A stretch of DNA of 64,000 nt from Escherichia coli (GTDB lineage Bacteria > Pseudomonadota > Gammaproteobacteria > Enterobacterales > Enterobacteriaceae): NCBI RefSeq assembly GCF_050320075.1, contig NZ_CP190019.1; one strand, written 5' to 3'. Position numbers: made by a program. The number at the start of each line of letters is the position of its first letter. The stretch's first letter is position 1. Of this stretch, positions 36,001 to 39,000 are shown piece after piece.

Positions 36001-39000
36001 AGGTCTGCCTCGTGAAGAAGGTGTTGCTGACTCATACCAGGCCTGAATAGCTTCATCATCCAGCCAGAAAGTTATGGAGCCACGGTTGATGAGGGCTTTA
36101 TTGTAGGTGGGCCAGTTGGTGATTTTGAACTTTTGCTTTGCCACGGAACGGTCTGCGTTGTCGGGAAGATACGTGATCTGATCCTTCAACTCAGCAAAAG
36201 TTCGATTTATTCAACAAAACCAGTTACAGCCCTTCGGCGATGATTCTCGCCGCTGAAGCCAGCACATCGCGGCGGCGCTCTGCGTTCTGTTGCGGCTGGG
36301 TAAAATAGGTCACCAGAACCAGCGGCGCACGACCCTGCGGCCAGATCACCGCAATATCATTGGTGGTGCCGTAGTCGCCGCTGCCGGTCTTATCACCCAC
36401 AGTCCACGACGTCGGTAAGCCGGCCCGAATGCTGGCTGCGCCGGTCGTATTGCCTTTGAGCCACGTCACCAACTGCGCCCGCTGGGTTTCGCCCAGCGCA
36501 TGACCCAGCGTAAGCTGACGCAACGTCTGCGCCATCGCCCGCGGCGTGGTGGTGTCTCTCGGGTCGCCGGGAATGGCGGTATTCAGCGTAGGTTCAGTGC
36601 GATCCAGACGAAACGTCTCATCGCCGATCGCGCGGGCAAAAGCCGTCACGCCTCCCGGGCCACCGAGCTGGGCAATCAATTTGTTCATGGCGGTATTGTC
36701 GCTGTACTGCAACGCGGCCGCGCTCAGTTCTGCCAGCGTCATTGTGCCGTTGACGTGTTTTTCGGCAATCGGATTGTAGTTAACCAGATCGGCAGGCTTG
36801 ATCTCGACAGGCTGATTAAGCAGCTGCTTTTGCGTTTCACTCTGCTTAAGCACCGCCGCGACCGCCATAACTTTACTGGTACTGCACATTGGAAAGCGTT
36901 CATCACCGCGATAAAGCACCTGCGTATTATCTGCGGTATCGATGAGCGCGACGCCCAGCCGCCCTCCGCTGCTTTTCTCCAGCGCCGCCAGCTTTTGCTG
37001 CACCGCACTCGTCTGCGCATAAAGCGGCGCGCTGCCCAGCAGCAGCGGAATGCACGCCGCCGCCGCGAACATCATCCGTTGCACTCTCTTTGTCACCATC
37101 TCAAACTCCCAATACGGTCAATCCGTGTTACATCAGTATTCCCTAAATTCCACGTGTGTTTTTTATTAGCTTCAAAAATCACTATTTCACGAAGAATTTA
37201 GACTGCTTCTCACACATTGTAACATTATTTACAACCACCTTTCAATCATTTTTGATAAATCATTGATTTCATCTTTGCTGCAATGATACTTAATAAACTC
37301 TGCAAGTTATCCACAGAGCAACACTCAATTTTATTGATGATATTCTTATTATACCAGACATTTTTCATACACTCCCTTGTACGGATAGTTTTCCGACAAC
37401 TTCATGATTACATATCTTGCGGTTTTGATTATTTTTGCTGCAAGAAATACATACTTCAAACGAAAGGTCTTTATTTGCTGTCTGTATTCTGAAGAGTCCA
37501 AGGAATCAAACTTGAACAACAAAAATAGGTTATATGAAATCCGAATGGCACTGTTGCAAATAGTCGGTGGTGATAAACTTATCATCCCCTTTTGCTGATG
37601 GAGCTGCACATGAACCCATTCAAAGGCCGGCATTTTCAGCGTGACATCATTCTGTGGGCCGTACGCTGGTACTGCAAATACGGCATCAGTTACCGTGAGC
37701 TGCAGGAGATGCTGGCTGAACGCGGAGTGAATGTCGATCACTCCACGATTTACCGCTGGGTTCAGCGTTATGCGCCTGAAATGGAAAAACGGCTGCGCTG
37801 GTACTGGCGTAACCCTTCCGATCTTTGCCCGTGGCACATGGATGAAACCTACGTGAAGGTCAATGGCCGCTGGGCGTATCTGTACCGGGCCGTCGACAGC
37901 CGGGGCCGCACTGTCGATTTTTATCTCTCCTCCCGTCGTAACAGCAAAGCTGCATACCGGTTTCTGGGTAAAATCCTCAACAACGTGAAGAAGTGGCAGA
38001 TCCCGCGATTCATCAACACGGATAAAGCGCCCGCCTATGGTCGCGCGCTTGCTCTGCTCAAACGCGAAGGCCGGTGCCCGTCTGACGTTGAACACCGACA
38101 GATTAAGTACCGGAACAACGTGATTGAATGCGATCATGGCAAACTGAAACGGATAATCGGCGCCACGCTGGGATTTAAATCCATGAAGACGGCTTACGCC
38201 ACCATCAAAGGTATTGAGGTGATGCGTGCACTACGCAAAGGCCAGGCCTCAGCATTTTATTATGGTGATCCCCTGGGCGAAATGCGCCTGGTAAGCAGAG
38301 TTTTTGAAATGTAAGGCCTTTGAATAAGACAAAAGGCTGCCTCATCGCTAACTTTGCAACAGTGCCAAAAATAGTCCTTCAGTGGGACGAAATGATCCGG
38401 ACCGCTGGCTCCCTGAAGCTGGGCAAAGTACAGGCTTCAGTGCTGGTCCGTTCATTGCTGAAAAGTGAACGTCCTTCCGGACTGACTCAGGCAATCATTG
38501 AAGTGGGGCGCATCAACAAAACGCTGTATCTGCTTAATTATATTGATGATGAAGATTACCGCCGGCGCATTCTGACCCAGCTTAATCGGGGAGAAAGTCG
38601 CCATGCCGTTGCCAGAGCCATCTGTCACGGTCAAAAAGGTGAGATAAGAAAACGATATACCGACGGTCAGGAAGATCAACTGGGCACACTGGGGCTGGTC
38701 ACTAACGCCGTCGTGTTATGGAACACTATTTATATGCAGGCAGCCCTGGATCATCTCCGGGCGCAGGGTGAAACACTGAATGATGAAGATATCGCACGCC
38801 TCTCCCCGCTTTGCCACGGACATATCAATATGCTCGGCCATTATTCCTTCACGCTGGCAGAACTGGTGACCAAAGGACATCTGAGACCATTAAAAGAGGC
38901 GTCAGAGGCAGAAAACGTTGCTTAACGTGAGTTTTCGTTCCACTGAGCGTCAGACCCCAATACGTGCGCAACAACCGTCTTCCGGAGCCTGTCATACGCG

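What the first reader, a model, noticed from the sequence alone, without database searches (positions are those of the whole stretch)
36224..37099. CTX-M allele call rests on two substitutions
The call as CTX-M-65 rather than CTX-M-14 depends on A77V and S272R, with D240 retained, judged from memory of the CTX-M-14 sequence. Allele identity matters for phenotype prediction.
Basis: established knowledge. Interest (0 to 1): 0.2.

Follow-up and report, generated by a model that had tools for sequence, protein, structure and literature searches.

The report
Confirmed blaCTX-M-65 gene on plasmid

Summary
The observation and the interpretation both hold. Window 36224..37099 (− strand) is an intact 876-nt, 291-aa ORF. 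Its protein is found by exact lookup as NCBI's "extended-spectrum class A beta-lactamase CTX-M-65". Its DNA is 876/876 identical to CDSs that PGAP names CTX-M-65 (WP_013188475.1) and that AMRFinderPlus calls blaCTX-M-65 at 100%.

Against a PGAP-annotated blaCTX-M-14 it differs at exactly two nucleotides:
- C239T (window 36861), giving precursor A80V, which is Ambler A77V.
- A823C (window 36277), giving precursor S275R, written "S272R" or "S274R" depending on the paper.

D240 (precursor 242) is retained. The nearest other allele is CTX-M-24, one nucleotide away, which lacks A77V.

The gene sits in the standard, already sequenced context: IS26 – TonB-receptor fragment – IS903B – blaCTX-M-65 – 42-bp spacer – ISEcp1 3′ remnant with its promoter – IS26. 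The host is an IncFII multiresistance plasmid nearly identical to E. coli p14406-FII and sharing this resistance module with pXZ. Expression was not tested.

The only correction is cosmetic. Nothing here is new. The expected phenotype is a cefotaximase ESBL like CTX-M-14.

The parts
36224..37099 (-). blaCTX-M-65 coding sequence (876 nt including TAA; 291-aa precursor; mature enzyme begins at residue 29)
   Evidence: ORF list and sequence. NCBIfam blaCTX-M NF033089 scores 617.8 bits against a cut-off of 570, covering 1-291/291. Exact-sequence lookup returns CTX-M-65. 876/876 identity to PGAP CTX-M-65 CDSs. PDB CTX-M-14 mature chains align to residues 29-291.
36860..36862 (-). Codon 80 GTC = Val (Ambler V77). 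The defining SNP C239T is at window 36861. It separates this allele from CTX-M-14 and CTX-M-24.
   Evidence: Direct comparison with annotated CTX-M-14, -24, -27 and -174 genes.
36275..36277 (-). Codon 275 CGC = Arg (the 'S272R' / Ambler S274R residue). The defining SNP A823C is at window 36277. It is shared with CTX-M-24.
   Evidence: Numbering from the literature.
36374..36376 (-). Codon 242 GAC = Asp (Ambler D240 retained; CTX-M-27 has GGC/Gly here)
37100..37141 (-). 42-bp spacer between the ISEcp1 right inverted repeat and the bla start codon
   Evidence: Read from the sequence. Identical in CTX-M-14, -24, -27 and -65 units from other records.
37142..37539 (-). 398-bp 3' remnant of ISEcp1. 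It holds the right inverted repeat (37142-37155, ACGTGGAATTTAGG), an outward promoter-like site TTGAAA-18 nt-TACAAT (37245-37216) and the last 64 or so codons of the transposase (stop codon at 37349-37351).
   Evidence: Collinear with full-length annotated ISEcp1 copies up to 37539. Promoter scan gives 10/12 matches with a TG before the second hexamer. Pfam DDE_Tnp_1_4 C-terminal match.
37540..37546 (.). 7 bp (TCCGAAT on the + strand) between the ISEcp1 remnant and IS26 that is not ISEcp1 sequence
   Evidence: Diverges from intact ISEcp1, but continues the sequence found next to the same ISEcp1 remnant in the E. coli ECCRA-119 chromosome.
37547..38366 (+). IS26 (820 bp) that truncates ISEcp1
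   Evidence: Terminal repeats located. Identical to other IS26 copies in the window. Annotated as IS26 in pXZ and p14406-FII.
35165..36221 (-). Complete IS903B (1057 bp; transposase 35221-36189) starting 2 bp after the bla stop codon
   Evidence: Inverted repeats at 35164-35197 and 36189-36222. Transposase DNA identical to the annotated IS903B gene WP_013362812.1.
34067..35164 (-). N-terminally truncated TonB-dependent receptor gene, the usual passenger downstream of IS903B
   Evidence: Pfam TonB_dep_Rec_b-barrel, profile positions 161-436 only. PGAP annotates the identical stretch as an incomplete TonB-dependent receptor.
32914..33733 (+). IS26 bounding the bla module on the other side, in the same orientation as the copy at 37547-38366

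Best explanation
The ORF is blaCTX-M-65, a CTX-M-9-group (CTX-M-14 cluster) class A extended-spectrum beta-lactamase. It equals CTX-M-14 plus Ala77Val and Ser274Arg (also written S272R; precursor positions 80 and 275), with Asp240, Pro167 and Ser130 unchanged. The protein has a 28-residue signal peptide and all four class A catalytic motifs: S70-T-S-K73, S130-D-N, E166 and K234-T-G. Transcription is inferred to come from the outward-facing ISEcp1 promoter, which survives in a 398-bp ISEcp1 remnant 42 bp upstream of the ATG. The unit (ISEcp1 remnant, bla, IS903B, truncated TonB-receptor gene) is boxed in by two directly oriented IS26 copies on an IncFII conjugative multiresistance plasmid. Shown here: sequence identity, allele identity, intact ORF, intact promoter motif and context. 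Inferred from published work: the phenotype (high-level cefotaxime/ceftriaxone resistance, low-level ceftazidime resistance, inhibition by clavulanate and avibactam), and a role for A77V as a stabilising rather than spectrum-changing substitution.
For: - Exact protein lookup returns CTX-M-65, UniRef A3RJI2_ECOLX.
- The DNA is 876/876 identical to PGAP-annotated CTX-M-65 in all 40 best-listed E. coli records, and to 8 of 60 rows of a spread sample.
- It is identical to CDSs encoding WP_013188475.1, which AMRFinderPlus calls blaCTX-M-65 at 100%.
- NCBIfam blaCTX-M matches full length above its curated cut-off.
- Only two nt/aa differences from annotated CTX-M-14, one from CTX-M-24, three from CTX-M-27.
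- The published definition is A77V + S272R/S274R relative to CTX-M-14.
- Catalytic motifs and P167, S130, V231 and D240 were read directly.
- The ISEcp1 right inverted repeat, 42-bp spacer and TTGAAA-18-TACAAT site are present.
- The whole module is 100% identical to the same module in many plasmids.
- Published phenotype: a CTX-M-65 clone had cefotaxime MIC >256, ceftazidime 16 and ceftazidime/avibactam 0.25 mg/L. CTX-M-65 isolates had cefotaxime 64 to >64 and ceftazidime 1-2 mg/L, reversed by clavulanate.
- A77V raised stability and expression when added to P167S or D240G variants of CTX-M-14.
Against: Nothing contradicts the allele call. Expression and MICs were not measured. The promoter is only a consensus match, although it lies inside ISEcp1 sequence conserved with other units. 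The curated allele databases (NCBI Reference Gene Catalog, BLDB, CARD, ResFinder) were not queried directly, only through annotations derived from them. No evidence was gathered on what Ser274Arg does functionally.
Confidence: 0.99

Rival explanations
1. It is another CTX-M-9-group allele (CTX-M-24, CTX-M-14, CTX-M-90, CTX-M-27 or a newer derivative such as CTX-M-247/248/249) that was mis-called from memory.
For: These alleles differ by only 1-3 nt, so a recall error was plausible in advance (one search shows them at 99.7-99.9% identity).
Against: Direct comparison gives 1 nt to CTX-M-24, 2 to CTX-M-14, 3 to CTX-M-27 and 4 to CTX-M-174, and 0 to CTX-M-65. The window has both V77 and R274, which excludes CTX-M-90 (A77V only) and CTX-M-24 (S274R only) as tabulated in PMC4086240. 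S130 and P167 are wild type, which excludes CTX-M-247/248/249.
Confidence: 0.005
2. The allele is CTX-M-65 but the gene is silent or weakly expressed because ISEcp1 is truncated by IS26, so the genotype over-predicts the phenotype.
For: Only 398 bp of ISEcp1 remain. Expression was not measured.
Against: The truncation lies about 295 bp upstream of the promoter-like site, which is intact together with the right inverted repeat and the 42-bp spacer. The same truncated arrangement is 100% conserved in many clinical plasmids annotated with blaCTX-M-65, which is consistent with a functional gene under selection (inference).
Confidence: 0.03
3. The two defining substitutions are sequencing or assembly errors in a CTX-M-14 gene.
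For: Only two bases separate the alleles.
Against: Both bases are the exact ones that define a named, widely sequenced allele, and the 876-nt sequence is identical to dozens of independent complete assemblies. The surrounding ~2.8 kb is error-free relative to other records.
Confidence: 0.005

Closest known systems
CTX-M-65 (WP_013188475.1; first GenBank entry EF418608 according to PMC4086240)
   Same: Identical over all 291 aa and all 876 nt. Same ISEcp1-remnant/IS903B/IS26 context as in pXZ NC_019095.1, p14406-FII NZ_MN823988.1 and many K. pneumoniae plasmids.
   Different: Nothing in the gene. The surrounding plasmid mosaic differs slightly from each individual record.
CTX-M-24 (WP_012579082.1)
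   Same: Shares Arg at precursor 275 (S274R). The flanks are identical across window 34724-37539.
   Different: One nucleotide (C239T): CTX-M-24 has Ala77 and the window has Val77.
CTX-M-14 (WP_001617865.1; PDB 1YLT)
   Same: 289/291 residues, with the same D240, V231, P167 and S130. Same spacer and ISEcp1 end.
   Different: A77V and S274R (precursor A80V, S275R).
CTX-M-27 (WP_032277257.1)
   Same: Same cluster and same ISEcp1-remnant/IS903B/TonB-receptor-fragment context.
   Different: CTX-M-27 has D240G, the ceftazidime-enhancing change, and lacks A77V and S274R. That is three nt differences.
CTX-M-90 (A77V only, per the table in PMC4086240)
   Same: Shares Val77.
   Different: Lacks S274R. 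No CTX-M-90 sequence was fetched here, so the comparison rests on the published table.

Membership tests
CTX-M family class A ESBL (NCBIfam NF033089 blaCTX-M) | Full-length match above the curated score cut-off | tested here: met
   617.8 bits against a cut-off of 570, residues 1-291 on profile 1-291/291. The next families (KLUC, FONA, OXY and others) all fall below their own cut-offs.
CTX-M family class A ESBL (NCBIfam NF033089 blaCTX-M) | Class A serine beta-lactamase catalytic motifs S70-x-x-K73, S130-D-N, E166, K234-T-G | tested here: met
   STSK at precursor 73-76, SDN at 133-135, EPTLN at 169, KTG at 237-239.
CTX-M-65 allele | Exact identity of the 291-aa precursor to the reference CTX-M-65 protein | tested here: met
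   The exact-sequence lookup is named CTX-M-65. The DNA is identical to CDSs encoding WP_013188475.1, called blaCTX-M-65 at 100% by AMRFinderPlus.
CTX-M-65 allele | Val at Ambler 77 and Arg at Ambler 274 ('272') on a CTX-M-14 background, as in the published definition | tested here: met
   Codon 80 is GTC and codon 275 is CGC, with no other difference from annotated CTX-M-14.
CTX-M-65 allele | No spectrum-modifying change: D240, P167, S130 and V231 retained | tested here: met
   Residues read at precursor 242 (D), 170 (P), 133 (S) and 234 (V).
CTX-M-14 allele | Ala77 and Ser274 | tested here: not met
   Both residues are substituted.
CTX-M-24 allele | Ala77 with Arg274 | tested here: not met
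   The window has Val77, a one-nt difference from WP_012579082.1's gene.
CTX-M-27 allele | Gly240 | tested here: not met
   The window has Asp (GAC) at precursor 242.
ISEcp1-blaCTX-M transposition unit | ISEcp1 right inverted repeat and outward promoter immediately upstream of bla (42-bp spacer as in the other CTX-M-14-cluster units compared) | tested here: met
   Right inverted repeat at 37142-37155, TTGAAA-18-TACAAT at 37245-37216, 42-bp spacer. Identical to the units of CTX-M-14, -24 and -27 records.
ISEcp1-blaCTX-M transposition unit | Complete ISEcp1 (intact transposase and left inverted repeat) able to mobilise the unit by itself | tested here: not met
   Only the last 398 bp remain, cut off by a 7-bp orphan plus IS26 at 37540-37547. 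Further mobility would depend on IS26 or the plasmid.
ESBL phenotype | Hydrolysis of oxyimino-cephalosporins with inhibition by clavulanate | not testable with these tools
   Inferred from published data on CTX-M-65 clones and isolates.

The most novel reading that the evidence does not exclude
The only non-trivial reading left open concerns gene dosage. The bla module lies between two directly oriented, identical IS26 copies (32914-33733 and 37547-38366). It could therefore behave as an IS26 translocatable unit that amplifies or diversifies within a clone, so copy number or heterogeneous copies, rather than the allele, would set the ceftazidime or inhibitor-combination phenotype. This was recently described for blaCTX-M-65 in K. 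pneumoniae (PMC12992794). The window holds only one copy, and nothing here shows amplification.
Probability: 0.1. Interest if true: 0.2.

Novelty: already known. Interest (0 to 1): 0.04.

Why it matters
It matters only as quality control. The allele label in the first-stage annotation can be trusted, and the gene is intact with its promoter-like site, so an ESBL genotype call is justified. The CTX-M-65 versus CTX-M-14 distinction is mainly an epidemiological marker, for example for the pHN7A8/pXZ-type IncFII plasmids and the Salmonella Infantis lineage. It does not change the categorical phenotype, because neither allele carries D240G or P167S. For clinical prediction, the co-resident genes in the same window (blaTEM-1, rmtB1, fosA3, aac(3)-IId, aph(3')-Ia, mph(A)) are at least as informative as the two substitutions.

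Tried and rejected
- **Spacer SNP as a lineage marker.** A third difference from one intact ISEcp1-blaCTX-M-14 unit (window 37124, in the 42-bp spacer) was tested as a possible CTX-M-65 marker. It is private to that K. pneumoniae record. CTX-M-14, -24, -27 and -65 units from four other records have the window's base.
- **The 234-bp length discrepancy.** The bla module and its best plasmid matches differed by about 234 bp in span. This is not an insertion near bla. The window lacks about 208 bp that lie next to an IS26 in pXZ and p14406-FII, and the rest is IS26 repeat alignment.
- **A second blaCTX-M copy or fragment.** I looked for one because heterogeneous multicopy is reported in PMC12992794. 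There is none. The only other beta-lactamase hit is blaTEM-1, at 38% amino-acid identity.
- **The ISEcp1 remnant boundary.** I first assumed the remnant ran up to IS26 (405 bp). Alignment to intact ISEcp1 shows that it ends 7 bp earlier (398 bp).
- **Annotation transfer offset.** My first transfer for window 1-13215 used a wrong offset, because of a 1-nt indel in a poly-C tract. It was corrected.
- **Kinetic data.** The literature search for CTX-M-65 versus CTX-M-14 kinetic constants found no head-to-head data in the held library. The Yin et al. 2009 paper appears only as a reference.

Full report
**Observation**

The ORF list and raw sequence show a single long ORF with exactly the reported coordinates. 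It lies on the − strand, with ATG at 37099 and the last base of TAA at 36224, and encodes 291 aa. Otherwise the feature is where it was said to be.

**Family**

The protein matches NCBIfam NF033089 (blaCTX-M) end to end, at 617.8 bits against a curated cut-off of 570. Every other beta-lactamase family model falls below its own cut-off. The class A motifs are present at precursor positions 73-76 (STSK), 133-135 (SDN), 169 (E166 in EPTLN) and 237-239 (KTG). Mature CTX-M-14 and CTX-M-9 chains in the PDB align to residues 29-291, so the first 28 residues are the signal peptide.

**Allele**

Three independent lines of evidence give the same answer.
- An exact-sequence lookup in the 15-billion-protein collection finds this very sequence under the NCBI name [quoted passage not shown] (UniRef A3RJI2_ECOLX).
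- The DNA is 876/876 identical to all 40 best-listed hits among complete E. coli genomes. PGAP, which names alleles by exact match, annotates each of them as CTX-M-65. In a spread sample of the ranking, the 100% rows are all CTX-M-65, and the 99.9%, 99.8% and 99.7% rows are CTX-M-24, CTX-M-14 and CTX-M-27.
- The window CDS is identical to the CDS encoding WP_013188475.1 in p14406-FII, which AMRFinderPlus (as reported by PLSDB) calls blaCTX-M-65 at 100% identity. The same annotation is found in pXZ and pDD02341-1.

**The two substitutions**

I fetched annotated reference genes and compared them directly instead of relying on memory.
- Versus CTX-M-14 (WP_001617865.1): two nucleotide differences. 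C239T changes codon 80 GCC>GTC (Ala>Val; window 36861). A823C changes codon 275 AGC>CGC (Ser>Arg; window 36277).
- Versus CTX-M-24: only C239T.
- Versus CTX-M-27: those two plus G725A, meaning the window keeps Asp at precursor 242, which is Ambler D240.
- Versus CTX-M-174: one more change, in the signal peptide.

The published table of the CTX-M-14 cluster reads CTX-M-24 = S274R, CTX-M-90 = A77V, CTX-M-65 = A77V + S274R and CTX-M-27 = D240G (PMC4086240). The window's combination is therefore unique to CTX-M-65. P167 and S130 are wild type. This excludes the recently described CTX-M-65 derivatives CTX-M-247, -248 and -249.

**Numbering**

Ser70 is precursor residue 73, so A77V is precursor A80V. 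The second substitution, precursor S275R, appears as S272R in some papers (PMC6256390) and as S274R in others (PMC8329498; PMC4086240). "S272" uses an offset of −3. The three labels therefore mix conventions, and 274 is the consistent Ambler number. This last step is my inference, drawn from the offsets and the review's stated use of standard numbering. It changes nothing about the call.

**Context and likely expression**

Read on the bla strand, the neighbourhood runs as follows.
- IS26 (37547-38366).
- 7 bp of non-ISEcp1 sequence (37540-37546).
- A 398-bp 3′ remnant of ISEcp1 (37142-37539). It holds the last 64 or so transposase codons, a promoter-like site TTGAAA-18 nt-TACAAT at 37245-37216 (10/12 matches, TG before the second hexamer) and the right inverted repeat ACGTGGAATTTAGG.
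- A 42-bp spacer (37100-37141).
- blaCTX-M-65.
- 2 bp.
- A complete 1057-bp IS903B (35165-36221).
- An N-terminally truncated TonB-dependent receptor gene (34067-35164).
- IS26 (32914-33733).

From 34724 to 37539 the window is identical to a chromosomal ISEcp1-blaCTX-M-24-IS903B unit except for the single A77V nucleotide. It is also identical in the flanks to CTX-M-14, CTX-M-27 and another CTX-M-65 unit. Transcription from the ISEcp1 promoter is inferred from this conservation. It was not measured.

**Replicon**

The bla module (33500-40500) is 100% identical to the same module in many E. coli, K. pneumoniae and Proteus plasmids, including pXZ NC_019095.1. Most of the window is collinear at 99.97-100% with E. 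coli p14406-FII (NZ_MN823988.1). The matching blocks are 1-13215, 13215-31639, 33731-40967 and 40000-64000. The window additionally has the IS26-bounded fosA3 unit found in pXZ. It carries seven intact IS26 copies. It also carries mph(A), aph(3')-Ia, aac(3)-IId, rmtB1, blaTEM-1, fosA3 and blaCTX-M-65, each DNA-identical to its annotated counterpart. The remainder is IncFII repA, pemIK and the tra region.

**Phenotype, from the literature only**

- A CTX-M-65 clone in E. coli DH5α gave cefotaxime >256, ceftazidime 16 and ceftazidime/avibactam 0.25 mg/L (PMC12992794).
- Meat isolates whose ESBL was CTX-M-65 had cefotaxime 64 to >64 and ceftazidime 1-2 mg/L, reversed by clavulanate (PMC8329498).
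- A77V is described as a global stabilising suppressor. It raised expression and thermal stability when added to destabilised P167S or D240G variants of CTX-M-14 (PMC5829062, citing Patel et al. 2015). CTX-M-65 has neither P167S nor D240G.
- I found no evidence on what S274R does on its own.

The expected phenotype is thus the same category as CTX-M-14, a cefotaximase-type ESBL. The allele distinction is chiefly an epidemiological marker.

**Verdict**

This is a textbook, already sequenced gene in an already sequenced context. It has no novelty and very low interest beyond confirming the annotation.

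Noticed in passing
window 2383-3202, 4243-5062, 13216-14035, 25216-26035, 30819-31638, 32914-33733, 37547-38366: Seven complete 820-bp IS26 copies. 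Three are in one orientation and four in the other. Five are identical and two differ by 3 nt. None has matching 8-bp flanks, so the region is an IS26-assembled mosaic.
   Followed up: partly
window 31639-33733 (fidL-like gene 31652-32170 on the + strand, fosA3 32175-32591 on the − strand, IS26 32914-33733): An IS26-bounded fosA3 fosfomycin-resistance unit. It is identical to the one in pXZ NC_019095.1 but absent at this position from the otherwise near-identical p14406-FII.
   Followed up: partly
window 33733/33734 junction: The window lacks about 208 bp that lie between this IS26 and the TonB-receptor fragment in both pXZ and p14406-FII. This looks like an IS26-adjacent deletion.
   Followed up: partly
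window 26433-27188 and 27358-28218 (both on the − strand): rmtB1 (16S rRNA methyltransferase, pan-aminoglycoside resistance) lies next to blaTEM-1. A truncated recombinase gene and an IS91-family element (29227-30426) sit beside them. All are identical to the p14406-FII annotation.
   Followed up: partly
window 1-2313, 3290-4105, 11525-12385: Three further resistance elements: the mphR(A)-mrx(A)-mph(A) macrolide cluster (cut by the window start), aph(3')-Ia between two IS26 copies, and aac(3)-IId.
   Followed up: partly
window ~934-940: A poly-C tract inside mrx(A) has 7 C in the window and 6 C in p14406-FII, where Mrx is predicted in two pieces. It is either a homopolymer sequencing difference or a genuine frameshift polymorphism.
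   Followed up: no
window 37540-37546: Seven bases (TCCGAAT) between the ISEcp1 remnant and IS26 are not ISEcp1. They match the start of a DUF6710-gene segment that abuts the same ISEcp1 remnant upstream of blaCTX-M-65 in the E. coli ECCRA-119 chromosome. This suggests the window's arrangement derives from that one through an IS26 event.
   Followed up: partly
window 38367-39400: Two truncated elements lie between IS26 and pemIK. One is the C-terminal fragment of a Tn3-family transposase (38320-38925, profile positions 230-389 of 389). The other is a truncated IS1 with insA intact and only the first ~42 of 131 insB profile positions.
   Followed up: partly
window 15440-17107: A group II intron reverse transcriptase/maturase gene (ltrA) sits in the plasmid leading/maintenance region. 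It is identical to the p14406-FII annotation.
   Followed up: no
window ~41750-44365, 44608-45465, 49540-64000: An IS66-family ISCro1 is inserted between the CPBP endopeptidase gene and IncFII repA. The F-type transfer region follows (finO, traX, traI, traD, traT, traG, traH), with a vapBC toxin-antitoxin pair between traI and traD (~55658-56283). Coordinates were transferred from the 100% identical p14406-FII.
   Followed up: no
literature, not the window: The same CTX-M residue (precursor 275) is called S272R in some papers and S274R in others. Text matching of allele definitions can therefore wrongly suggest two different substitutions.
   Followed up: yes
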